From Azolla caroliniana (taxonomy: Eukaryota; Plantae; Polypodiophyta), in assembly GCA_043228905.1 (NCBI GenBank), contig JBHGNT010000017.1, positions 3,224,001 through 3,288,000 on the forward strand: a DNA stretch of 64,000 bases, in the 5' to 3' direction. A program made the position numbers and the translations under genes. This document shows positions 356 to 62,500 of this stretch, piece by piece. Numbering within the stretch: the stretch's first letter is position 1; each line of letters begins with the position of its first letter. The notes beneath the pieces are model-generated. The model made no database searches and was not told the DNA's origin. It saw only the letters and a program-made list of their open reading frames with translations.

Positions 356-780
356 TGTTAGGAACAATACTAAAACAAAGAAGGAATTAGTACTAAAAGA
401 AGTATTAGTACTAAGAGAGGTGAAGAACTCTCAAGAGAAGGAAAGAGTGAGTGAGAGGGAGGGAGGGAGAGAGAGAGAGAGTGATGATAAGAAAAGATAT
501 ATATTATGTGAAGAGAATGTACAGTAGTAGCTAGGAGGCTTAAGACTGGCGTTGAACTGATTTGGTTCGAAATAATGCCTTGTGCCTCCTTTTATAGTGT
601 TCTGAGGAATACTCCTGAAGTTTCTAGAATGTTCCAGAGAAATTTGGAATATACATCAATTTTCTATAATAAAATATAAATGAAAATAATATTCTACGTA
701 TTACAATGTATGGTCTAATGGTCAAGAGCTTGACCCATGTAGCATAAGGTCATGGGTTCGAGTCTTGCCATATCATGACA
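356..780 (-). mobile_element. Solo LTR of chromovirus family F
   Basis: Reverse complement of the LTRs at 45335-45771 and 59239-59685, with TG...CA ends. TSD catta/cattg. The host integrase frame resumes on both sides. Confidence 0.92.
705..776 (+). promoter_or_regulatory. tRNA-derived Pol III type-2 promoter-like module (A box 711-721, B box 755-765) inside the F-family LTR
   Basis: TGGTCTAATGG, a 33-nt spacer ending AAGGTCATG, then GGTTCGAGTCT. The spacing and the AAGGTCnnGGGTTCGA motif are tRNA-like. No complete cloverleaf. Confidence 0.65.
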
Positions 781-1838: not shown

Positions 1839-4800
1839 ATGGACAGAGGAATGGCGAGTTCACTTCCAATAGAGAAGCTCTACCAGAGCAACTATGCGTC
1901 CTGGTCATATAAAATGCACCAATACCTATTGGGGCATGGATATTGGAGCTTCGTGGAAGGAACAAATGAAGTAGCACCAGAGCTGTCACACAAAGATTTC
2001 TCGGTATGGGAGCAAAGAGCGAGTCGGGTACTGTACTGTCTCGCGTCTGGTGTGCATGATCAAATGCTCAGCTACATCAAGGATGCAAAGACGTTGAAGG
2101 AGGCTTGGGAAAATCTACGGAAGATTTTCGTCGCAAGTACCACAACTCGTAAGTTGCAGCTCCGGCAAGAGCTGAACAACATTCGGCAAAGAGACATGTC
2201 GGTTACGGACTACACCACCAAGATAAATGAGATTTGCGACGCACTCGAGTCCATCAACGTGACAGTGGACGAAGACGAGATGGTACAAATCTGCGTCGGT
2301 GGTCTAGCGCAAAGGCACGGGCCAATCCGAACAACAATCTGCACCTGGGAGAAACCATCATCCTTCTTTGACTTGCAATCGATGCTGGTGGTTGAAGAAA
2401 ACCACGCGAGTGGGTCAAGGACCACTCAATCAGACGACCGGATGCTGTACACAGAGACAGATCGGCCCCATGGATGCGGTGGACGAGGTGGGTCGGCACG
2501 CAATGGAGGTGGCCGACAAGAGCAGGACCAGAGGCACAGAGGTTGTGCCGACAACAATTCCGGACCCTCCACAATCAGGGGGAGTCAAAGTGGCACCGGG
2601 AACCGGGAACCAGCAAGGAAAGGCTGACACAGAATGTTGGTACTGTGCCAAAAAGGGTCATAGGGAAAGCGAGTGCTGGAAGAAGTGCGCCGATTCGGAC
2701 AAATCCGGATCCGGCAAAATCGGTTGGGAGAACCGAGAAAACTCGCACTACGCGGAAGGATCAGAAGGATCCGGAACTGGGAAAACTAGTAAAGGGCCAG
2801 CCTTCGTGATGAAGCACAAGGCTAACTCAATGAAGAAGACTACTTTTGGATCGGAGGAAGTATGGTACGTTGATTCCGGAGCGTCCAACCACATGACGAG
2901 CCATGAAGAGTGGTTCTCTTTTTTGGAGAAAACGGAACAACCAGGGATTGTCGAAACCGGAGACGACACCCCTCATCCGATTGTGCATGTCGGAGAAGTC
3001 CCTTTAAGCCATGTCGGACAAAAGGGGAAGCTGATGAACGTACTACCTGTTTCGACTATCACAAAGAACCTGGTGTTAGTTGGGCAAATCGTTGACTAGG
3101 GGATGTAGGTGCCATTTACGCACCTAGGGTGCTGCATTGAGGAAGAGGGCCGGATAATTGCGCAAGGGTGTAGAGACGGGAGGATGTTCATCCTCAACAC
3201 TAATGATGTCAGCACCGCTATGTTTGTGAAAGGGCAGAAGGTTGAATCAGACATCAACCTGTGGCACAAGCGGATCGACCACGTCAATTATCGGAGGCTT
3301 CAAGACCTGCAATCGAAACAAGTCATTTTTGGTTTGCCGAAATTTAGCAGTCGGAAGGCCGAAATTTGTGAAGCTTGCCAACTCGGTAAGCAACACCGGC
3401 TTCCATTCCCCACCGATCAAAACCGGAGCCATAACAAGCTCGATTTAATCCATTCGGATGTATGGGGACCGACACAAAACGTTAATCTTGGCGGGAGTCG
3501 ATATTTCATCTCCTTCATTGACGACTACATCCGGCACACGTGAATCTACCTCATCGAGAGGAAGAGCGAAGTCTTCGAGTGTTTCCGGAACCTTCAAAGC
3601 TTGGTTGAACGGGAAACGGAGAGGAAGATTAAGTGCCTGCGGTCGGACGACGGGAAAGAATACTTTTTCGGCCAATTCAACAGTTATATGCAACAGAACG
3701 GAATTCGGAGAGAATTCAGCTGCAGGTACACACTGGAGCAAAATGGTGTGGCCGAAAGGAAGAACCAATCGATTGTCGACACGGCAAGGGCAATACTGGA
3801 GGAGAAGAGCATGCCCCATTTCTACTGGGCCAAGGCGGTTTGAACAACCGTCTACATCCAAAACCGATTTGGTGACAAGGTGTTAGCACATGAGTTGTAT
3901 TTCGAGCGAAAGCCAAATTTGAGACACCTTCGGATATTCGGTAGCATAACATATGTGCATGTACCAGATGAGAAGCGGAGGAAGTTGGATCCGAAGTCGG
4001 AGAAGTGCATTCTAGTTGGTTACTCACATGAGCAAAAGGGGTATAAGTGTTATAACCCTCGAACTAAGCAGGTATGAGTAAGCCGAGACGTCAAGTTTGA
4101 TGAGACGGCATCACCAACTCCAACTCCTGACGAAGACCCGATTCCGGAAGATGAGGCTAGTGAGCCCGAGGAGGTCGAGGTAGAAGATGAAGACTTCGGC
4201 ACTCTAGAAGAGAGTCCGATCTCATTCCGGCTAAGTGGACTGAATGAGCAGCTGAGTCGGGATGACCGGTCGGATGAGGAACCGACGAGTAGTGGAGACT
4301 CTACCGTGCTCTCCCTGCGCAAGGAACCGAGGAGACGATTCATGCGCAAAGAGAAGGGGAAGAAGAAGATGCCGGAATACGAAACCGGCAACGTTGAGTC
4401 GGATCGGAGTGAATCCGACTCCGGAAAGGATGAAGGTGGATCTTCGGGAACGAAGTCCGATCTGGCCAAGAAGGGCCCCAAACCGGGTAATACCAAGTTA
4501 CGCTGGTCTTCCCGCCTGAAGAACCCTGTTACGCGGTACGGGTACAATGAGTACATGGCGCATCATTATGCGTTCATGACTAAGGTGGCGGAAGTGTGTG
4601 AGCTGGAGAGCTACACAGAAGCGGCAAAGGACACAACTTCGCGTGCCACTATGGAGGAAGAAATGCGGGCACTAGATGCCAACGACACATGGGACCTCGT
4701 TGACCCTCCCTGACACTATAATCCGATCGATTGCAAATGGGTGTACAAGGTAAAGTACAATGTTAACGGTTCGGTTAACCGATACAAGGCCCGATTAGTG

Positions 4801-6855
4801 GCGAAGGGATATGCACAGACCCAGGGAATCGATTACAACGAGACCTTCGCCCCGGTAGCGAAGATGATGACGGTTCGTGTGGTACGGGCGGTTGCTGCGA
4901 CAAGGGGGTGGCATCTTCACCAGATGGACGTGAAGAATGCGTTTCTTCAAGGTGACCTTGAAGAACGAGTCTATATAATCCAAGATCCTGGTTTTCAGTC
5001 GGAGATGAACAAGTCGGCGGTGTGCCGGCTCAAGAAGTCACTTTACGGTCTGAAACAAACCTCTCGAGCTTGGAATGCAAAGATCACGCACCGATTGCGT
5101 AAGATGGGGTTTGTGACCTCTAAATCCGACTCGTCGTTGTTCATCCGGCAAGGTCTGGATGGTTCGGTTTGCATCCTACTTTATGTTGATGATTTAGTCA
5201 TCACCGGACCTGGACTCAATGAAATCGGTCGAGTAAAGTCCCAACTGTCAGACGCATTTGAAATGAAGGACTTGGGGGACCTTCATTATTTTCTTGGGAT
5301 CGAGGTGATCCGAATCCCCGACGGCATATTGCTCTCACAATGACACTATGTGTTGAATATGTTGTATAAGTTCGGTATGACGGAGTGCCGATCTGTCTCC
5401 ACACCCCTAGACCGGAACCAGAAGCTCTGTCCCAACTCTGGACCGGCCTGCGATGAGAAACGGTTCGGACAAATCGTCAGAAGCCTGATATACTTGACAA
5501 TCACTCGACCCGCCTCAGTTACCCGGTCGGAGCGATCAACCAGTTCATGCAGAAGCCAATTGTCGAGCACCTTCACTGCGCACACCAGATACTCTGGTCT
5601 GTGAGCGGCACGAAGGACTGGGGACTGTTATACCTGACGGGAACAACACGCTCCGTATACGCAACGCTCGGCCACAACCGAGCTTAGAATCATACACAGA
5701 AAACGAGAAATGAAACGCACGACACAAAGAAGAGAAGTGTACACAGGATGTTTACGTGGAAAACCCAAACTAAGGGAAAAACCACGACAGCCCACAGACT
5801 GCAAACTATCACTATGCTAGAATGTACAACAGTGAGTTCACGGAGGCAACAACCTCGTGCTCACGATCCTCACCACAGGCGGCGGTTACAACAGAGGCAA
5901 CGACCTCTTTCTCACTCTCTCTCTCTGTACACAGTTCCACGCTCTCTCTCTCTCCTTGCGCCAACAAGAAAATGACAACAACTAACTAAAAGTTTGCCCT
6001 AAGTCATATTTATACTAATATGACTTTTCGGCTATTTACAAATATAGCCATGATGGGCTCTCAAAAACATATTTACGAATATGTCTCTTCATCCGGTGAG
6101 CACTTCTCACCGGGTCTGCACCATCCAGCTCTTCGTAGCCGGGTACTCCTCATCCGGTCTTCACCGGGTCTGCACCATCCGGTTCTCCGTAGCCGCATAC
6201 TCCTCATCCGGTCTTCATCGGGTCTACACCATCCGGCTCTCCGTAGCCGGGTACTCCTCATCCGGCTCTCCGAAGCCGAGTTTGCTCATCAGCACTGTCC
6301 TTCTCCCTTCCCATCCGGAGGGATCTGTCTCCCAACAATACTGGCATGGTATATAACCAAAGAACTAGTTGGATATACAGATGCCGACTAGGCCGGTGAT
6401 GCATCAGATCGCCGATCCACCTCCGGTTACATGTTTTCTCTGGGTAGCGCGACTGTTGCGTGGAGTAGCAAAAAGCAGCCAACAGTGGCTTTGTAGAGCA
6501 TTGAGGCTGAATATTGGGGTGCTACCAATGTCACCTGTGAAGCCATCTTGCTTCGGCGACTGCTTGCAAGACTTGTGGTTTGAGGTCCCGACCCCGATCC
6601 TGATCTATTGTGACAACATGAACAACATTCAGCTCGCCAAGAACCACGTGTTCCATGCTCGGACGAAGCACATAGAAGTCCACTATCACTTTGTGCGTGA
6701 GCGACTGTTGAGCGGTGAAGTAGAACTTCGATATGTTCAGACAGATCGACAAATTGCCGATATCTTCACCAAACCGCTAAGATCGGACAAGTTGTAGCAC
6801 TTCACCGAAATGCTTGGTGTTCAGCATCTCGACGTGCCGCACTTGAGGGGGAGAA
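1839..6855 (+). pseudogene. gag-pol: Copia B gag-pol (frameshifts and stops)
   Basis: Gag, CCHC knuckle (CWYCAKKGHRESEC), protease WYVDSGASNHM, integrase HSDVWGP / LRSDDGKEY, RT YKARLVAKG / LYVDDL, RNase H HARTKHIEVHYHFVRE. Confidence 0.93.
5635..6337 (-). mobile_element. Solo LTR related to Copia I, with ~3 x 54-bp CCGG-rich U3 repeats (~6088-6270)
   Basis: Reverse complement begins TGTTGGGA..TCCCTCCGGATGGGA like 35235 and shares the palindromic TATA block. TSD atacc/atact. Interrupts B between RT and RNase H. Confidence 0.88.
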
Positions 6856-8225: not shown

Positions 8226-9365
8226 ATGAGGGGATCGGAGCTAGCAAAGGCAATGGCGGTGGCTGTCAACCGACTGGTGAGTGCTCGTGAGGGAACGGGT
8301 ACCCTCGACAGAGCCATTGAATCGATCGTCGACTCTATAGGCCGTTTCGGAGGGAAAGACGCCACAAGTTATTTGGAGGCTTACCGGGCCGAAATGATCA
8401 TGTGGGATATCCCGGTGGACATGCGGTTGTCCGGATTCCCTCAGGTGGTGACGTCGGGCATCCATGTGGAGGTGCTCGAGGTGCTGGCCGGATGCCAGAC
8501 ATGGGAGGAGTTCGAGCTGCAGCTCCTCGAGAAGTACGGGTTTGACGACTCGCTCCGGCTGTCGAGGCGAGACTTCATGGCGTGGGTGGAAAGCCCCGGA
8601 AAAGGGAGGAACACGTCGGTGCTCCTCCAGGAGTTCGAAAAACGGTTCGCGCGGCTGTCGACGCTGGACCGGACGGTGCTCGAAACAAGTCGAGTACTGC
8701 TGTTTGTCAAGTCGGTGGATGCGCTCGACAAGGAAAAGGTGGGTCCCCTATTGGAAACGGACGAAGGGCTCACGACGGACTGGGCCGTGGTAAAACGGGT
8801 CTGTAGCCGTTTCGACAAATGGCGCGATTGGAGCGACGGAAGCACGTCGGGGTCGGGGCCAGTCCCGGGGAGGAGGCTCGAGGAGCCGGTTTCGGTGCCG
8901 GCTGGGAGGAAGGAAGAGACCCGAATCTGGCCGGAGTCGGGGTCGGCATCGAACGACGTGGTCAGAGGCCCATCCGGAGGGGCGGCTCTGGAGGAGCTAA
9001 CACAGATGGTGCGCGACCTGCAGATCGCACAGGCCCGAAGGGACAGCGGTGAACAACCTCGCGACTGGAGGCCGCCGGCTGGGCAACGGTGCATGTGGTG
9101 TGACGCGATTGGTCACATTCAGAGGGATTGCGCGGATTTCTCCGACGCGCTTAGGACCAACGTGGTGTACCTCTGGAACGGGCGGGTGCACACGAGCGAG
9201 ACTCAGAGAGCCCTGGAACTGAATACGGGGCGCGACGGAATGAAGAGGTTGATGGAAGAGGCCGCGGCATGGCACGTCGAAGCCGTTAACTACTCAGTGT
9301 CGGCGGGAATTCGGGTCGGGGGTGATGAGACCCGGAAGGCGAAGGACTCCGGATTCTGGCGCTAG
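8226..9365 (+). pseudogene. gag: Gag of element C (CCHC knuckle CMWCDAIGHIQRDC), frameshifted at ~9360
   Basis: Colinear with D gag. The homologous sequence continues in another frame after FW. Confidence 0.85.
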
Positions 9366-10789
9366 TGCTAGAAGGCCTCTCCGGAGTTCGGCTGAGGAAG
9401 GAAGAGGCGGACCGCGCGGAACAACGGGTCCAGGAGGTCACCGGTTGGGACGATCCGGTCGAAGAGAAAACGGGCTTCGTAGAAGCCACTTGCCAAAACT
9501 ACGAGGTTCTGGAGGAGGACAAATTAGCAGGAAAGACCGGAGGGGTTGGTCCCGGGGAGGAGGCTCGAGGAGCCGGTTTCGGTGCCGGTTGGGAGGAAGG
9601 AAGAGACCCGAATCTGGCCGGAGTCGGGGTCGGCATCGAACGACGTGGTCAGAGGCCCATCCGGAGGAGCGACTCTGGAGGAGCTAACACAGATGGTGTG
9701 CGACCTGCAGATCGCACAGGCCCGAAGGGACAACGGTGAACAACCTCGCGACCGGAGGCCGCCGGCTGGGTAGCGGTGCATGTTGTGTGACGCGATCGGT
9801 CACATTCAGAGGGATTGCGCGGATTTCTCCGACGCGCTCAGGACCAACATGGTGTACCTCTGGAACGGGCGGGTGCACACGAGCGAGACTCGGAGAGCCC
9901 TGGAACTGAATACGGGGCGCGACGGAATGAAGAGGTTGATGGAAGAGGCCGTGGCATGGCACGTCGAAGCCGTTAACTACTCAGTGTCGGCGGGAATTCG
10001 GGTCTGGGGTGATGAGACCCGGAAGGCGAAGGACTCCGGATTCTGGCGCTAGTGCTAGAAGGCCTCTCCGGAGTTCGGCTGAGGAAGGAAGAGGCGGACC
10101 GCGCGGAACAACGGGTCCAGGAGGTCACCGGTTGGGACGATCCGGTCGAAGAGAAAACGGGCTTCGTAGAAGCCACTTGCCAAAACTACGAGGTTCTGGA
10201 GGAGGACAAATTAGCAGGAAAGACCGGAGGGGTTGGTCCCGGGGAGGAGGCTCGAGGAGCCGGTTTCGGTGCCGGTTGGGAGGAAGGAAGAGACCCGAAT
10301 CTGGCCGGAGTCGGGGTCGGCATCGAACGACGTGGTCAGAGGCCCATCCGGAGGAGCGACTCTGGAGGAGCTAACACAGATGGTGTGCGACCTGCAGATC
10401 GCACAGGCCCGAAGGGACAACGGTGAACAACCTCGCGACCGGAGGCCGCCGGCTGGGTAGCGGTGCATGTTGTGTGACGCGATCGGTCACATTCAGAGGG
10501 ATTGCGCGGATTTCTCCGACGCGCTCAGGACCAACGTGGTGTACCTCTGGAACGGGCGGGTGCACACGAGCGAGACTCGGAGAGCCCTGGAACTGAATAC
10601 GGGGCGCGACGGAATGAAGAGGTTGATGGAAGAGGCCGCGGCATGGCACGTCGAAGCCGTTAACTACTCAGTGTCGGTGGGAATTCGGGTCGGGGGTGAT
10701 GAGACCCGGAAGGCGAAGGACTCCGGATTCTGGCGCTAGTGCTAGAAGGCCTCTCCGGAGTTCGGCTGAGGAAGGAAGAGGCGGACTGC
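8862..10789 (+). repeat. Tandem triplication of a 687-bp gag segment (units start 8862, 9549, 10236; third unit split by D)
   Basis: ORF track repeats with period 687 (9365/10052/10739). Confidence 0.95.
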
Positions 10790-15029: not shown

Positions 15030-16923
15030 TCTCGGTTTTCGGAACCGAGGGAGTCGCAGTTACGTTCGTGGTTCGGCCGTACCGTCAGAAACTGGACCGA
15101 ATGGCGCCCGTCCTGGCTTTTGACCCTTGCATAGGCCGAACCATTATTCAGCACCTTGGTCTCCATTCGCGCCGCCGTGATGTACGGCTCTCCCAATATT
15201 ACCGGATGCGAGGACGTCTCCTGTACGAAGAAGTGCTGGTCAATCTCGATGTCGCCGATCTTGACCCGTACGTTCGGGCAGGCCCCGTGCAGTTCCTCGG
15301 TGGCGCGCGTCGCCACCCGTATCTTCCACCCGTGCTTGGTGTTGATCGGCCATTTGCCCTTCTTGTAGAAGTCCATGGACATTAGGTTGATCTCCGAACC
15401 GTGGTCCACCAAAGCTACCACCGGTTCCTGGACATCTCTGATCTTCACCGGGGTTTCCGTGGTCGCTCGGGCCCAATGTGGCCTCGAAAAGTGGCTCTCC
15501 GCCCACTCATCTTCCAGCGACATGTCGTCTAGGTGCGTCGTCCGCACCTCTACCGGTCTTTCCGGTTCTACCTCCGTTGACAGCCTCTTCCGCTTCACCA
15601 AGTCCACGATGGAGTCGTGGAACTCCTTCCTGGCGATTCCTAGCACTTCCCGTAATGACAGCTCCACCTTGCTGTCGAGGATCCGTTCTTCTAGGACCTT
15701 CCGCAGGTCCGTGGTCCTCTCTATTTCCGTCCCCAGTCGGTATCCGCCCTTCCTGGGGTTATCTTGCGCATTGGACCCGCCGGCCTCGTTCCGTCGTTGC
15801 CCGAACCGGGTCTCGTATCGTTGTAAGGGCCCGGTCGTTCCGGTTTTCCCCACCCGCTTCTCTTCTACCAGAGCCTCGTAGTTCTGGCAGGCGGCTTCCA
15901 CGAAGCCCGTCTTTTCCTCGACCGGGTCGCTCCACCCGGTTATCTCCCGGACCCGTTTCTCCGCGCGGTCCGCTTCGTCCCCTTTTAGCCGCGTACCGGC
16001 GAGGCCTTCCAGCATCGCCGACCAGAATCCGGCTTTGCTTTCCTTTCGGGCCTCGCTGCCCCTGACCCGAATGCCGGCCGACGCCGAGTAGTGGACGGTT
16101 TCCGCATGTCGGGCCGCCGCCTCTTCCATCAGTCTCTTCATCCCTCCTCGCCCGTCGTTTCGGTTTAGGGCCCTTCTGGTGTCGCTGGCGTGCACCCGGC
16201 CTTCCCACAGGTACACCACCCGGTTCTTCAGCGCCTCTGCGAAATCGCCGCAGTCCTTCCGAATGTGGCCGACCTCGTCGCACCACATGCATCTGTTTCC
16301 CGCTGCCGGCCGTCGGTCGCGAGCCGGCTCGCCGCCTTCCCTGCGGGCTTGTGCAATTTGGAGGTCCTTTATCGCCCTCGTCAATTCCTCCAGCGCAGCT
16401 CCTCCGGTTGAGCCTCTGATCACGCCGGTCGAAGCTGAACCGGTTTCCAGCCACTCCCGGGTCTCTCCCTTTCGCACCGGCTGCGCCGGTTCAAGCTTCC
16501 TTGCTGCGACCGAGCCCGACCCGGTCGCCCCGTTATCCGCCCATTCTCGCCGTTTGTCGAAACGGCCGCAGGCTCTCTTAACCGCCGCCCAGTCGGTCGT
16601 CAGCCCGTCTTCGGTTTCCAGCAGGGCGCCCACGTGATCCCGATCCCGCTCGTCCACCGACTTGACGAACAGTAGGACCCGGCTTGTATCCAGGATCGTT
16701 CGGTCAAGCGTCGAAAGGCGCGCAAAGTTTTCCTCAAACTCCCGGAGGAGTGCCGACGCGTTTCTTCCCTTCCCGGGGGACTCTACCCATTCCATGAAAC
16801 TTCGTTTCGAAAGCCGGAGCGCGTCGTCCAGCCCGTATTTCTCTAGGAGCCGACCTTCGAACTCCTCCCAGGTCGGCTCTCCGCCCGCACCTCGAGCACC
16901 TCCGCATGGATGCTCGGCATCGC
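15020..16923 (-). pseudogene. gag-pro: D gag-protease ORF, C-terminal part (N-terminus at 25631-25405; split by E; 1-nt deletion near 16875)
   Basis: CCHC knuckle CMWCDEVGHIRKDC. Protease ALVDHGSEINLM...VILGEPY lies in the same ORF. Confidence 0.88.
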
Positions 16924-43532: not shown

Positions 43533-45334
43533 CTATCTTGCTCACGCATACACAGGTTCTTCTTCATCACGAATGTTGCTTGCACTTCCGCATTGACGGG
43601 CTTGTCCCCAACACTAGGTGGGCTCAATTCCTCACACGTTTTGATTTCAAAATCGCATATCGACTGGGGAAGCAACAAGGAAAGGCAGATGCACTATCAC
43701 GACATTCATATCTTGCACCTCGTCCTAGTGATCCAGCGTTCGATAATCAAAAGCAAGTAATCTTGGAACCAACACGATTGCACACAACGCGGATTTTTCA
43801 CACCCCAATGGATTCCCAGATTACCGACACCATATGTGTGAATTTGAAGACGGACAAGTTTGCTCAAAACATTCTGGTGCACATTGATACCTCTCGGGCA
43901 TCTTGTTCCTAATCTCAACAACCAGGTATGGACTACCGACAATTCGAATATCATGATGATTTGTTATTCTTTAAAAAGCTTGTATATGTCCCCGATTGCT
44001 CCTGTTGCCTTCAAATCATCCAAAGTTGTCACGACACCCATATGGCGGGACATTTCGGTAGCACTAAGACGTTGGATCTAGTTCAACGATCCTTTTGGTG
44101 GCCCCATATGCGACGTTTTGTCAACAACTACGTTCGGACCTGTGATGCTTGCTGCCGAGCAAAGATGCCACGACACCATCCATATGGCTTGTTGGAACCC
44201 TTACCGATTCCAAGTAAGCCGTGGCAGTCTATTTGTCTTGACTTTATCACAAATATGCCGGTCTCGAAGGGGTTCGATGCTATATTAACCGTCGTCGATC
44301 GATATCTGAAGATGGCACATTTTGTGCCGTATACTAAGGCCATCATTAGCGAGGAAACCGTCGCCCTTGTCATGCGTGAGGTATTTCGGCATCATGGCCT
44401 CCCAGACAGTATCATTAGTGACTGAGGATTGCAATTCGTCTCCAAATTTTGGCAGCATCTCTTCAAGATGCTCAAGGTCTCTTGCAACCTCTCCTCTGGC
44501 TACCATCCTCAGACCGATGGGCAGGCGGAACGAACAAACCAAACGCTAGAGCAATATCTTCGGTGTTTCCTGAGTTATCAACAGGACGATTGGGCCGAGA
44601 TTCTCCACTTTGCGGAGTTTGCGTATAATAATGTTATTCACTCCTCGACTCGAGTCTCCCCATTCTACGCTTATACCGGTTCTCATCCTCGTTGGTCGGT
44701 GATCGACACCTCGGAGCTACCTACCAATCCTCGTGCCGAGGATCATTTCGAGAGACTACGCAAGATCCAGATGGATCTGTCTACTCATCTTCATCATGCT
44801 CAACAGACACAAAAGACTTACGCGGATCGTCATCGGCTTCCCTCCTCTTTTGCCATCGGAGATTGAGTATGGCTTTTATGTCGTCACATCAAGACTGCTC
44901 GACCGTGCGACAAGTTGGATTATCAATGACTCGGCCCTTTCCGTATTACCGGTAAGGTTAATGATGTCACGTTCCACTTGATCTTCCTCCGCATTTTTGG
45001 ATGTATCGGATACATCCAGTCTTCCATAGTTCTCTTCTTGAACCTTACAGAGCAAACACTATTCCCGATCGTGTTACACCAGCGCCGCCCCCACTTGAGT
45101 TAGACACCGGCCCGGAGTATGAAGTTGCCATCCTCGACTCCAAATTTGTTCGCAACAAACTTTATTATTTGGTCGATTGGCTCAGCTATAGTCCAAGCGA
45201 ACGTACTTGGGAGCCCATCGAGCATGTCGCCAATGCTCAAGATCTTCTTGCTGATTTTCACCGACAGTATCCCGATAAACCCGATCCTCAATCAACGTCA
45301 ACTCATTCCAATTGTCGTCTTTAGGGGGGGATAG

Positions 45335-45771
45335 TGTCATGATATGGCAAGACTCGAACCCATGACCTTATGCTACATGGGTCGAGCTCTTGACCATTAG
45401 ACCGTACATTGTAATTTGTAGGATATTATTTTCATTTATGCTTTATTATAAGAAATTAATGTATATTCCAGATTTCTCTGGAACATTCTAGAAGCTTTAG
45501 GACTACTCCTGAGAGCACTATAAAAGGAGGCACAAGGCATTGTTTTGAACCAAATTGATTCAATGTCAGTCTTAAGCCTCTTAGCCACTTTGTACTTATC
45601 CTTCACATAATATATAGTTGTTATCATCATCTCTCTCTGTCTCATCCTCGCTATCTCTCTCTCCTCTTCTCTCTTTCCCTCTCGGGAATCTTATGCAGTC
45701 CCGTCCTAGTACTAATAATACTTCTCTTCTTTAGTACTAATTCCCTCTCTGCTTTAGTACTATTCCTGACA
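45335..45771 (+). repeat. 3' LTR of F, with antisense tRNA-like module at ~45340-45410
   Basis: TGTCATG...CCTGACA after PPT AGGGGGGGATAG. Confidence 0.92.
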
Positions 45772-57589: not shown

Positions 57590-59120
57590 AGAATCCATCT
57601 CTTGATTCTTTACAAGAAACAACAAATATCATTATGCGTGAAGTATTTCACCATCATGGTCTTCCAAACGACATAATTAGTGATAGTGGACCGCAATTTA
57701 TCTCTCACTTTTGGAAGCACCTATGTGACGGGCTCCGAATCTCTTGCAAACACTCTTCAACATATCATCCCGAAACTGATGACCAAACAGAGCGCACAAA
57801 TCAAACACTTGAGTAGTATCTTCGATGTTTCATCAGTTATCAACAAGATGATTGGAGTCATATATTGCATCTTGCAAATTTTGCATACAATAACACCATA
57901 CACTCTTCTACCAAGGTCACACCTTTCTATGCCTATACTGGCAACCATCCTCGATGGTGTCTCTTGGACATTCCAGTGATCTCACCAAACCCTAGTGCAG
58001 AGCAACACCTCCACTGACTACAACACCTTCAGTCTGAGTTGTCTTCACATCTTCAAAAAGCTCAAGCCCAACATAAGGCCCATGCAGATCAACATCGTCT
58101 TCCGTCTCCATTCAAGGTTGATGATCGGGTATGGTTGTTACGCCGTCACATAAAGACTACTCAACCGTGTGATAAACTAGATTACAAATTCTTGGGTCCT
58201 TTTGTCATCATGAAGCAGATTAATGATGCAACATTCCGTCTTGATCTTCCTGCAAGTTTGCAGCTTCATCCAGTCTTTCACATCTCTCTTTTGGAACCTT
58301 ACCACACCAGCTCAATTCCCAATCGTGTCGTGCCACCACCGCCTCCTCTCCAACTTGTTGATGGCCCAAAGTATGAGGTAGCCTCCATTCTTGATTCAAA
58401 GTTTGTGCGCAATAAGTTGTATTATCTAGTTGATTGGCTAGGCTATATCAATTCCCAATCGTGTCGTGCCGCCACCGCCTCCTCTCCAACTTGCTGATGG
58501 CCCAAAGTATGAGGTAGCCTCCATTCTTGATTCAAAGTTTGTGTGCAATAAGTTGTATTATCTAGTTGATTGGCTAGGCTATACTCCGAGTGATCGCACA
58601 TGGGAACCTGTCAATAATGTTTGTAATGTTCAAGCTCTTATTGACGACTTCCATCGTCGGTATCCCAACAAACCTGGCCCTGCATTGTTAACAACTCCTT
58701 CCACTCGTCGTTTTAAAAGGAGAGATAGTGTCATGAATTCGTAAACATTATGTGGCTTCACTTGGGCTTGAACCCAAGACCTTGTAATACATAATCAAGA
58801 ACCTAACCATTAAGATAGCATATGATTATATAAAATAATAAAAACTACTTCTTGTAATAGATTGATATTGTAAATGTTCTAGAACATTCTAGAACATTAT
58901 AGAAATCACTAGGTTATTCTATAGGAACCTATAAATATGGACATACAATTCTTCTCAAAACCAATTCGAATCAACACCGGTCTTAAGTTCTCATCACCTA
59001 TCTTGTATCCATTCTTATTCTACTTTAATACATTCATTCTTCTCTTATCATTTCATTCCTCTTCTTGTGATCTCTTTATATATTTCTTCTATCACTTTAC
59101 CTTCTCTCTTTGTTCTGACA
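57590..59120 (+). mobile_element. Element M: 3' part of a second Tcn1-like chromovirus family (INT, chromodomain, LTR 58729-59120)
   Basis: Homologous to F INT and chromodomain, but with a different LTR (TGTCATGAATTC...TTCTGACA). 136-bp tandem duplication at 58312-58583. Confidence 0.88.
58754..58822 (-). promoter_or_regulatory. tRNA-derived A/B-box-like module in the M LTR
   Basis: Minus strand TATCTTAATGG, 32 nt ending AAGGTCTTG, then GGTTCAAGCCC. Confidence 0.55.
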
Positions 59121-59530
59121 ATAACCCTCGAACAAAACAAGTTCGAGTGAGCCGAGATGTCGAATTTGATGAGTCGGCATCATGGTACTCTCTACCGACT
59201 CTGATGTCCGACTCCGACCCGATTTCGGAGGATGAGGCTGTCATGATATGGCAAGACTCGAACCCATGACCTTATGTTATATGGGTCGAGCTCTTGACCA
59301 TTATACCATCTATTGTAATACGTAATATATTATTTTCATTTAAGTTTTATTATAGGAAATTAATGTATATTCCAGATTTCTCTGGAACATTCTAGAAGCT
59401 TCAGGATTACTCCTGAGAACACTATAAAAGAAGGCACTAGGCATTATTTTGAACCAAATTGGTTCAACGCCAGTCTTAAGCCTCATAGCCCTTTTGTACT
59501 TGCTCTTCACATAATATATCCTCTGCTATC

Positions 59531-59579
<49 letters not shown>

Positions 59580-62500
59580 CTCTCTTCCTCTCTCGGGATT
59601 CTTATGCAATCCCGTCCTCTTAGTACTAACAATACTTCCCTTTTCCAACACTAATTCTCTCTCTGTTTTAGTACTATTCTTGACAGAGGCCAGTGAGCCC
59701 GAAACAATCCGGGCAAAAGATGAAGAAGGATTCGGTACTCAAGATGAGAGTCTAATCTCATTTCGGCTAAGTGGGCCGATTGAGCGACTGAGTCGGCATG
59801 ACCAATCAAAAGAAGGGCCGACGAGTAGTGGAGATTCGGCCGTGCTCTCCCTGCGCAAGGAACCGAGGTGACGATTCACATGCAAAGAGAAGGGGAAGAA
59901 GAAGATGTTGGAATATGACATCGGCAGAGACAAGTCGGATCGAAGCGAATCCGACTCCGGGAAGAATGATGACGGACCTTTGGGAACAAAGTCCAAGCCG
60001 ACCAAGAGGGCCTTGAAATCGGCTAAAGAGAGGTTATGTCGATCGACCCGCCAAAAGAACCACATCAAACAGTATGGTTATAATGAGTACATGGCGCATC
60101 ATTATGAGTACATGACGAAAGTGGCGGACATGCGTGAGCCGGAGAGCTACACATAAGCGGCAAAATATGCACAATGGTGTGCCGCTGTGGAGGACGAGAT
60201 GCATGCACTTGATGGCAACGACACATGGGACCTGGTTGACCCTCCCCGACATTATAAACCGATCGGTTGCAAGTGGGTGTATAAGGTCAAGTATAATGAT
60301 GACGGTTTGGTCAACTGGTATAAGACCCAGTTAGTGGCCAAAGGATACGCGCAGACCCACGGAATCAACTACAACGAGACCTTCGCTCCGGTAGCGAAGA
60401 TGACGACAATTCGTGTGGTGTTGGCGGTTGCAGTGGCAATGGGTTGGCATCAACATCAGATGGATGTGAAAAATGTGTTCCTGCAAGGTGATATTGAGGA
60501 ACAAGTGTTCATGGTTCAGCCCCCTGGATTTCAGTCGAATATGAACAAGTCGGCAGTGTGCCGACTCAAGAAGTCCCTTTACGGTCTGAAGCAAGCCCCC
60601 TGTGCTTGGAATTCGAAGATTACGCACCGATTGCGTAAGATGGGGTTTGTGGCCTCCAAGTCGACTCTTCGTTGTTCATCTGGAAAGGTTCAGACGGTCC
60701 GGTATGTATCTTGTTATATGTAGATGATCTAGTCATCACCGAGCCCGACCTCACTGAAATTGGCCGAGTGAAGTCCCAGTTGTCGGACGCATTCGAAATG
60801 AAGGACCTTCATTACTTCCTCGGGATCGAGGTGATCCACACCCCCAACGACATATTGTTATCTCAACGACATTATGTGCTTAATATGTTGTACTAGTTCG
60901 CCATGATGGATTGCCGACCAATCTCCACACCCCTGGACCGGAACCTGAAGCTTCGTCTCGACTTCAGACCGGCCTGCAATGAGAAACGGTTCCAACAAAT
61001 TGTCGAAAGCCTTATTTATTTGACGATCACCCGACCTAACATTAGCTATCTAGTCGGAGCGATAAGTCCGTTCATGCAGAAGTCGACAATGGAGCACCTT
61101 CAGTGCGCGCACCGAATACTGAGGTATGTTAGCGGCACTAAGGACTGGGGATTGTTATACCGACATGGTATAACCGAGACGCTAGTCGGATATACCGATG
61201 CCGACTGGGCTGGAGATGCATCGCATCGACAGTCCACTTCTAGATTCATGTTTTCTCTTGGTAGCGTGGTTGTTGTGTGGAGAAGCAAAAAGCAACCAAT
61301 TGTGGCTCTATCGAGCACTGAGGCTGAGTATCGGGGCGCTATTGTTGCTACCTATGAAGCCATTTGGCTTCAATGGCTGTTGCAAGACCACCGGATCGAA
61401 GTATCGACTCCGATCCCGATCTACTGCAACAACATGAGCAGCATGCAGCTAGCCAAGAACCATGTGTTCCATGCTCGGATGAAGCACATCAAAGTGCATT
61501 ATCACTTTGTGCGCGAGCGGGTCCTCACCGGTCAAGTAGAACTCCGGTATGTCCGGACGGATCAACAAGTTGCCGACATCTTCACCAAGGCACTCGGGAC
61601 CAACAAGTTGCAACATTTTTCGGAGATGCTTGGTCTTCAGCATCTTGACATGCCGCACTTGAGGGGGAAAACCGGAACCGGAACAAAAGCTAGGAAAGCA
61701 GGAAATGGCACCGAACAAGTAGCCGAAGAGAAGGAAACAAACGAAGCAAGGGGAGACAAGATGAAAAACGGAGCCGAGTCGACTTAAGAAGTCGGCACAT
61801 CCGAACAAGTCAGGAACAAGCGGCGACAACGACTGAGTCAAGAAGGACAAAGTCGAGCAAAAGGAGAAGGCCAAGACTTGAACGTGGTCTGACGTCGTAA
61901 AGGGCTTAAAGATTGAAGACGAATTGGAGACAACCAATTCTCACAAGAGCTGGAACGAATCGGAGGCACCTGATTCGGAGAAACCGAATCAACTAAAGGC
62001 CAAACGAATGAGAAGGCAGCGGAAGTCGACACCAACACGGAGGAACTGACGGGTCGAGATGCGTCGGAGTCATAACAACGAAGGAGCTGAGATGGGCCTC
62101 CTGAGCAAACAAGTTGACCGAGAAAGTCGAGGTGCGCGGGACCGGACGGGTCAAGGACCACGAGCAAGGCGGGAAGACACCAAGAGGAGCTAGAGGAATG
62201 GACCGGTACACACTGATACAACGATCTGACCTCAAGTTAAGCTCAAGGGGGAGTGTTGAACAGACAAGCTCAATTAGATCCGGATCGGAGTCTGGAACGA
62301 AGAACTGAATTGGTATCGGGAACCAAAAGCCGGATTGGATTGTAACCGGTAGGCAGTTAGAGGCCTACGCCTAGTACATAGGCATATTTTTGGGAGTCAG
62401 TGTCAATCACTTGTATGAGCATTGAAGTACATATCAATACTTCTGGCAAACCTTTTAAGGACTTGTACAAAAGTGCTCACTGAGTACATTGTACATACAG

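What the first reader, a model, noticed from the sequence alone, without database searches (positions are those of the whole stretch)
705..776. tRNA-derived Pol III promoter module built into the U3 edge of chromovirus F LTRs
Seen: all three F-family LTRs (356-780, 45335-45771, 59239-59685) carry, antisense and within ~75 nt of the LTR left end, an A box (TGGTCTAATGG), a 33-nt spacer and a B box (AAGGTCATG-GGTTCGAGTC). The B box is unchanged in all three copies. Known: this is the layout of tRNA internal promoters, TFIIIC-bound B boxes can act as chromatin barriers, and Cassandra TRIMs carry a 5S Pol III promoter in their LTRs. Inference: a protein-coding chromovirus lineage has co-opted a tRNA promoter, either as an insulator against surrounding heterochromatin or to fire Pol III outward or antisense.
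Basis: partly seen in the sequence, partly recalled or inferred. Interest (0 to 1): 0.75.

Follow-up and report, generated by a model that had tools for sequence, protein, structure and literature searches.

The report
Chromovirus LTRs carry outward tRNA promoter
A group of protein-coding plant jumping genes keeps the two promoter boxes of a tRNA gene at the outer edge of its end repeats, pointing away from the element; these boxes likely recruit the tRNA-gene transcription factor and would help shield the element's own promoter from silencing.

Summary
The module is real and wider than reported. All three F LTRs, plus a fourth LTR of a second chromovirus family in the window (58729-59120), carry an antisense A box/B box pair at tRNA spacing near the U3 end. 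So do 15 of 15 readable LTRs of close relatives (tails 57-78% identical between lineages); 38 of 40 distant chromovirus LTRs do not. Between lineages mid-U3 has largely turned over, yet tRNA-invariant positions stay conserved (0.91 vs 0.68 for other module positions). The cloverleaf, hairpin and terminator are not conserved. The elements encode their own proteins, have a separate TATA promoter and self-prime, so the module neither makes the genomic RNA nor pairs with a tRNA primer. Best reading: a tRNA- or SINE-derived TFIIIC site kept by selection, likely acting on DNA as a boundary. Binding, transcription and insulation are untested. Pol III promoters in LTRs are known (Cassandra, Helenus, foamy virus U3). 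Ten searches found no report of this outward-facing layout in plant chromoviruses. This scan noted tRNA boxes in chromovirus LTRs before, in a gut-fungus-like genome.

The parts
356..780 (-). Solo LTR of chromovirus family F (TG...CA ends, 5-bp target duplication with 1 mismatch)
711..721 (+). A-box-like motif (tRNA positions 8-19), antisense to the LTR
722..754 (+). 33-nt spacer: decayed D/anticodon arms and a 5-nt variable-loop-like segment; forms a long hairpin with the T arm in family F only
755..765 (+). B box (tRNA positions 52-62), ends 15 nt from the LTR end
671..710 (+). AT-rich stretch upstream of the A box (85% AT here, 74-93% in all 19 clade LTRs); inferred TFIIIB site
   Evidence: role inferred
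590..596 (-). TATA-like box of the element's sense (Pol II) promoter, conserved across lineages
551..562 (-). Self-primer motif at the inferred start of R; in full-length relatives it is complementary to the sequence just after the 5' LTR
45335..45771 (+). 3' LTR of a broken family F element, preceded by a purine tract (45323-45331)
45350..45404 (-). A/B module of the second F LTR (A box has T8>C)
45127..45264 (+). Chromodomain at the integrase end of the family F element
   Evidence: Pfam Chromo E 5.8e-13
59239..59685 (+). Solo F LTR inserted in a copia-like element, perfect 5-bp target duplication
59254..59308 (-). A/B module of the third F LTR (A box has C12>A)
58729..59120 (+). 3' LTR of a second, related chromovirus family (here G), with its own chromodomain and purine tract upstream
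58764..58817 (-). Homologous A/B module of family G

Best explanation
A clade of self-priming, protein-coding plant chromoviruses carries a tRNA-like A box/B box pair at the outer U3 edge of each LTR, facing away from the element, which likely came from a tRNA or SINE head, is likely kept by selection as a TFIIIC binding site, and would act on DNA as a boundary for the element's own Pol II promoter. Shown: sequence, spacing, orientation, clade-wide presence, conservation centred on promoter positions, and loss of the tRNA fold. Inferred: TFIIIC binds the boxes and loads TFIIIB on the AT-rich stretch further inside U3. In the 5' LTR this complex would sit between the flanking host chromatin and the enhancer and TATA box (about 170 bp from B box to TATA in family F). 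It would hinder heterochromatin from spreading in at the silent sites where chromodomain integrases are thought to insert. Facing outward, Pol III would not run into the Pol II promoter. Any RNA made would be a by-product.
For: Antisense A+B score is 6.5-22.9 bits in 19 of 19 clade LTR ends, against 7.0 or less in 38 of 40 distant chromovirus LTR ends. 18 of 19 beat all 200 dinucleotide shuffles. T8-to-G53 distance is 44-45 nt in 11 of 12 representatives, and 44-47 in 26 of 27 real tRNAs. 16 of 17 module rows fall in one group, SH-aLRT 95, quick tree. Across 7 lineages only the att end, this module and the TATA/self-primer block align throughout. Ten tRNA-invariant positions have mean conservation 0.91, against 0.68 for 43 other module positions and 0.58 upstream (p 2e-4). 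In four runs (2433, 2100, 1627 and 735 contigs laid) no variant of 5% or more is listed at 752-780, including the CpG in the B box; the largest A-box variants are at the degenerate positions 9 and 12, and positions 15-20 show none. The GTTCRA core is intact in 7 of 7 high-coverage contigs and 2 of 8 low-coverage ones (p 0.007). No fold or terminator is conserved. Self-priming with a compensatory change removes the need for a tRNA primer. TFIIIC binds B boxes and often sits at boundaries (PMC8136502, passages). Chromodomains direct integration to heterochromatin (PMC7466625, passages).
Against: There are no binding, chromatin or stranded RNA data. Columns were anchored on the boxes, which inflates their conservation, and positions 35, 37 and 44-48 outside the boxes are about as conserved. 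Scores are below every real tRNA (at most 22.9 vs 25.1-39). G10>A reaches 8-19% in three of four runs, and A14>G and T8>G about 9% in one run. L013 and L015 share a changed A58, so one subfamily lost a core B-box base. L023 is weak (3 of 200 shuffles as high) and unplaced in the tree. Within family F the AT-rich stretch 650-692 shows just one listed variant, and under-reports near the ends of the stretch (two variants seen are missing). All 15 relatives come from one series of metagenome assemblies, so they may stand for few hosts. The coverage cut-off was chosen after seeing the data and the loci are not independent. My search found no paper showing TFIIIC barriers in plants. CpG methylation can block tRNA-type promoters (PMC8136502, passage).
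Confidence: 0.45

Rival explanations
1. The module is a working Pol III promoter whose RNA is what matters: a short tRNA-like or antisense RNA read out of the LTR, over the purine tract and chromodomain end at the 3' LTR, that tunes the element's silencing or acts as a decoy.
For: A box, spacing and AT-rich upstream are kept, which is more than a bare B box needs. A T4 run lies 10-61 nt past G53 in 9 of 12 representatives. Family F folds as a long hairpin (z -2.6 to -4.5). Foamy viruses make Pol III small RNAs from U3 (PMC3993851, passages).
Against: The hairpin is strong only in family F (z -4.1; others -2.3 to +1.2). The first T4 is 462-1036 nt away in 3 of 12, including the high-coverage F and G representatives. 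In the window the T4 lies 80, 535, 116 and 45 nt past the B box, set by flanking DNA.
Confidence: 0.2
2. It is a neutral fossil: a SINE head landed in the ancestral LTR and persists by descent, helped by lying next to the integrase attachment end.
For: Non-box positions are also conserved. Similar A/B-like pairs occur outside an LTR start in L013, so a source repeat may exist in these hosts. Low-copy elements have decayed boxes.
Against: The distance from B box to LTR end varies from 15 to 48 nt, so it is not part of att. Mid-U3 motifs have been replaced between lineage groups while box bases and spacing remain. High-coverage copies keep the core (7 of 7).
Confidence: 0.15
3. It acts in the genomic RNA, where U3 is complementary to tRNA D and T loops or to the self-primer, tethering a tRNA or the primer to aid minus-strand transfer or packaging (cf. 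Ty3's split primer site and the tRNA-like stretch in HIV-1 U3, both recalled; my search for them found nothing).
For: Antisense orientation in U3 is what such pairing needs. The sense strand of the B box resembles the primer-binding motif in most lineages.
Against: These elements self-prime, so no tRNA primer is needed. In family G the primer and its binding site changed together (12-bp complement) but the U3 box did not follow. Degenerate positions vary freely, where pairing to one tRNA would fix them.
Confidence: 0.12
4. The boxes serve as landing pads for Pol III-targeting retroelements, as earlier notes of this scan proposed for chromovirus LTRs in a gut-fungus-like genome.
For: Same kind of carrier and motif (notes e1-10420520 and e1-10420559, unchecked). 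Ty3-type targeting needs intact boxes (PMC5911963, passages).
Against: None of the 4 window LTRs is interrupted upstream of the A box, and 0-1% of laid contigs run on into unlike sequence. It could be a consequence but does not explain selection.
Confidence: 0.05

Closest known systems
Helenus TRIMs (Kojima 2024, PMC10886601; parts 1-4 of 6 read, plus passages of the supplement)
   Same: tRNA-derived sequence inside LTRs, conserved at boxes A and B, unlikely to be a working tRNA, probably from a SINE insertion.
   Different: Helenus is short and non-coding and tRNA-primed. In the supplement passages I saw, the boxes are in sense orientation towards the LTR 3' end. Here the carrier encodes Gag-Pol, self-primes, has a TATA promoter, and the boxes face outward at the U3 end. 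The paper notes that 'not a few' Repbase LTRs resemble part of a tRNA but analysed only TRIMs under 1 kb.
Cassandra and Ajax TRIMs (as described in PMC10886601)
   Same: Pol III promoter boxes built into an LTR.
   Different: 5S-type, non-autonomous; Cassandra's promoter makes its genomic RNA.
Foamy virus U3 Pol III microRNA cassettes (PMC3993851, passages)
   Same: An autonomous LTR element with Pol III units inside U3 beside its Pol II promoter.
   Different: There the units have terminators and stem-loops and yield microRNAs. Here neither fold nor terminator is conserved and the module keeps tRNA spacing.
Tcn1 clade / Tf1-Sushi group chromoviruses (PMC6317226 and PMC2864245, passages)
   Same: Chromodomain with aromatic cage residues, self-priming, PR-RT-RH-IN-CHD order, 5-bp target duplication.
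   Different: No tRNA-type promoter is mentioned in the passages read; tree placement against reference Tcn1 elements was not tested.
B2 SINE and TFIIIC-site chromatin boundaries (PMC8136502, passages)
   Same: tRNA-derived boxes on a mobile element proposed to mark chromatin boundaries.
   Different: Mammalian SINEs acting on host genes, partly through CTCF; here the boundary would serve the carrier element itself, and it is untested.

Membership tests
Type 2 (tRNA-type) Pol III promoter | B box with GTTCRA core | tested here: met
   Intact in 4 of 4 window LTRs and 9 of 15 relatives (7 of 7 high-coverage)
Type 2 (tRNA-type) Pol III promoter | A box upstream on the same strand | tested here: met
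   T8 12/12, A14 11/12, G18 11/12, G19 11/12 (anchored on the motif); G10 is T in 5 of 12
Type 2 (tRNA-type) Pol III promoter | tRNA-like spacing of the boxes | tested here: met
   44-45 nt in 11 of 12, 47 in one; real tRNAs 44-47 in 26 of 27
Type 2 (tRNA-type) Pol III promoter | TFIIIC binding and Pol III transcription | not testable with these tools
   Only unstranded contigs were available
tRNA gene | Cloverleaf with paired acceptor and anticodon stems | tested here: not met
   ARAGORN 0 in the window and in 60 loci; no Rfam tRNA hit; anticodon stem 3 of 5 pairs or fewer in 11 of 12
Helenus / TRIMp3 | tRNA-derived sequence in the LTR | tested here: met
   isotype not assigned
Helenus / TRIMp3 | Short non-coding element (about 0.3-1.3 kb) | tested here: not met
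   L003 has 431-aa and 1203-aa open frames, the latter with PR, RT, RNase H, integrase and chromodomain
Helenus / TRIMp3 | tRNA-complementary primer site | tested here: not met
   The site after the LTR is complementary to the element's own R motif: 12 bp in 4 of 6 loci, 9 bp in one, 11 bp with one G-U pair by eye in L003
SINE insertion in a subset of copies | Present in some copies only, with its own tail and target duplication | tested here: not met
   Present in 19 of 19 readable clade LTRs; no tail or duplication seen in the alignment; highest laid depth of the F LTR
Tcn1-type chromovirus | Chromodomain and self-priming | tested here: met
   features as in PMC6317226
Tcn1-type chromovirus | Phylogenetic placement with reference Tcn1 elements | not tested
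   No named reference Tcn1 sequence was among the hits
TFIIIC chromatin barrier | Blocks spread of silencing in a B-box-dependent way | not testable with these tools
   Needs a reporter or chromatin data

The most novel reading that the evidence does not exclude
A heterochromatin-seeking retrotransposon clade has captured a tRNA promoter as a portable insulator: every new insertion brings TFIIIC sites at both LTRs, protects its Pol II promoter in silent chromatin, and seeds a very large number of Pol III/TFIIIC sites, including solo LTRs, through a plant genome. Tf1/Sushi-group elements may have done this more than once (gut-fungus notes; weak hits in L073 and L030).
Probability: 0.3. Interest if true: 0.8.

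Novelty: new variant of a known kind. Interest (0 to 1): 0.58.

Why it matters
How chromoviruses stay expressed after inserting into silent chromatin is an open puzzle (my own knowledge). A built-in, selected TFIIIC site is a concrete candidate that one point mutation can test. It would also give natural test material for TFIIIC boundaries in plants: many LTR copies with intact or decayed boxes in one genome. It extends Pol III promoters in LTRs from non-coding TRIMs to autonomous elements, where Kojima 2024 argued that the TRIM-type promoter region is unlikely to be shared.

Tried and rejected
No whole genome is held for this window, so no genome-wide copy alignment was possible. ARAGORN and Rfam found no tRNA. 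A DNA pattern scan of viral contigs gave 2 unrelated matches and a protein scan none. No RNA holder was listed; the one RNA-labelled run laid was flagged as probably DNA, so nothing is said on expression. 'Hairpin only, tRNA look by chance' was rejected because the hairpin is strong only in family F while the boxes are clade-wide. 'Second copy of the primer-binding site' was disfavoured by family G. The source tRNA isotype could not be assigned: only bacterial tRNAs could be fetched. The careful tree did not finish; the quick tree is used. A/B-like hits in distant loci at 16 bits or more (6 in 384 kb) match the window background rate, so they are not counted. Of 105 loci were scored as clade, 40 as outgroup, 4 had the LTR cut too short, and 46 were left out for lack of a clear purine-tract/TG junction or too little sequence. 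The host species was not determined.

Full report
Observation. The + strand has an A-like box at 711-721, 33 nt of spacer and a B box at 755-765. It lies in a solo LTR on the - strand (780 to 356, target duplication 4 of 5), so it is antisense and points out of the LTR's left end. The other two F LTRs are a 3' LTR behind an integrase, chromodomain and purine tract (45335-45771) and a solo LTR in a copia-like element with a perfect 5-bp duplication (59239-59685). The B box is identical in all three; the A box differs by one base in each of the other two. Three copies are weak evidence, as mid-U3 is 92 of 110 identical. ARAGORN and Rfam see no tRNA. A fourth LTR, of a second chromovirus family G (58729-59120), has a homologous module in the same place and orientation.

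Relatives. No host genome was held. An alignment of integrase-chromodomain tails fetched 79 metagenome loci and 26 loci from genome contigs. I located the 3' LTR start after the purine tract. Fifteen close loci were readable, 40 distant ones served as controls, 4 had the LTR cut short and 46 were left out. With A and B matrices from 27 bacterial tRNAs, the first 130 nt of all 19 clade LTRs (15 loci, 4 window copies) score 6.5-22.9 bits on the antisense strand. 38 of 40 distant LTRs score 7.0 or less, two score 18-19, and real tRNAs score 25-39. 18 of 19 beat all 200 dinucleotide shuffles; L023 did not. In a quick tree of 55 rows, 16 of 17 module rows form one group with two LTR-cut rows (SH-aLRT 95); L023 is unplaced. 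Tails are 65-78% identical among six lineages and 57-60% to L023. All 15 loci come from one series of assemblies, so the number of hosts is unknown. Four coded organisms hold family F at high copy (2,900-5,200 contigs laid each).

What is conserved. Across seven lineages three blocks align throughout: the att end, this module, and the TATA/self-primer block; mid-U3 motifs differ between lineage groups. The B box ends 15-48 nt from the LTR end, so it is not part of att, while the T8-to-G53 distance stays at 44-45 nt in 11 of 12 representatives, as in tRNAs. Ten tRNA-invariant positions average 0.91 conservation, 43 other module positions 0.68 and the upstream 30 nt 0.58 (p 2e-4; six high-coverage representatives 0.97, 0.69, 0.62). 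This test is partly circular because columns were anchored on the boxes, and positions 35, 37 and 44-48 are also well kept. Within family F, four runs list no variant of 5% or more at 752-780, CpG included. The A box varies most at positions 9 and 12, less at 8, 10, 11, 13 and 14, and not at 15-20. That table under-reports near its ends, and 650-692 is also nearly invariant in it; but laid depth peaks over the B box in both calls. The GTTCRA core is intact in 7 of 7 contigs with coverage 28 or more and in 2 of 8 with coverage 9 or less (cut-off post hoc, loci not independent; L013 and L015 share a lost A58).

What is not conserved. The anticodon stem is broken (3 of 5 pairs or fewer in 11 of 12) and the T stem is partly kept (4 of 5 in 7 of 12, counting G-U). 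The long hairpin of family F is not significant in most other lineages, and the first T4 lies 10 to 1036 nt past the B box. So no common RNA product is predicted.

The carrier. L003 has open gag-like and pol frames with protease, RT, RNase H, integrase and chromodomain. The sequence after the LTR is complementary to the element's own R motif, with a compensatory change in family G. This is the self-priming described for Tcn1 and Tf1/Sushi elements (PMC6317226, passages). No tRNA primer is needed, and the genomic RNA has its own TATA promoter. The module is therefore neither primer nor genomic promoter.

Mechanism. Shown: anatomy, distribution and conservation pattern. Inferred: TFIIIC binds the boxes (box roles in PMC5911963, passages) and loads TFIIIB on the 74-93% AT stretch upstream, between the LTR edge and the Pol II enhancer. 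Chromodomains steer insertion to heterochromatin (PMC7466625, passages) and TFIIIC sites often mark boundaries in yeast and animals (PMC8136502, passages), so a boundary role is my best reading (0.45). I put about 0.8 on the narrower claim that this is a selected tRNA-type promoter element. Rivals: a functional antisense RNA (0.2), a neutral SINE fossil (0.15), RNA-level pairing in U3 (0.12; precedents recalled, not found), landing pad (0.05).

Comparison and novelty. Kojima 2024 (PMC10886601; parts 1-4 of 6; supplement passages) describes tRNA boxes in LTRs of non-coding TRIMs and says that 'not a few' Repbase LTRs resemble part of a tRNA, so some autonomous cases may already sit there unanalysed. 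Foamy viruses have Pol III units in U3 (PMC3993851, passages). This module works like a type 2 promoter but is not a Helenus (coding, self-primed, antisense) and not a tRNA gene. Ten searches (listings, plus passages of PMC2864245, PMC13570524, PMC12498455, PMC5006619) showed no report of this layout in plant chromoviruses; subscription papers and the supplements of those papers were not seen. Earlier notes of this scan report tRNA boxes in chromovirus LTRs of a gut-fungus-like genome (unchecked). Verdict: new variant of a known kind, interest 0.58.

Noticed in passing
window 601-650 (- strand) and 58870-58900: Mid-U3 of families F and G carries overlapping GAAnnTTC/TTCnnGAA units resembling heat-shock elements (motif recalled; 3 units each; longer arrays in L005/L007). 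Lineages L009, L011 and L012 carry different GC-richer repeats there. This core is as well covered as the B box.
   Followed up: partly
L003:5053-5061 and relatives: In relatives with open frames the pol frame runs through the purine tract and stops inside the first bases of the 3' LTR.
   Followed up: no
L073:679-808 and L030:706-835: Two distant, GC-rich chromovirus LTRs have an antisense A+B-like pair near the left end (15 bits, 0 of 200 shuffles, but picked post hoc from 40). Possible independent captures or chance. L052 and L065 have a pair deeper in the LTR.
   Followed up: partly
L013:290-535: Several A/B-like pairs, one with the same A box as L006/L017, lie away from any chromovirus LTR start; may be a source repeat or LTR relic.
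   Followed up: no
window 58312-58583: A 136-bp tandem duplication (98% identical) splits the chromodomain of the family G copy.
   Followed up: no
window 551-570 (- strand) and relatives: The self-primer motif is the 3' arm of a short inverted repeat conserved in most lineages, and itself resembles a sense B box; probably a property of the priming site.
   Followed up: partly
window 8855-10789: Three tandem copies of a 687-bp unit, 95-100% identical, related in inverted orientation to 15868-16916.
   Followed up: no
L082-L107: 26 chromovirus loci sit in prokaryote genome records, likely eukaryotic contamination of those assemblies.
   Followed up: no
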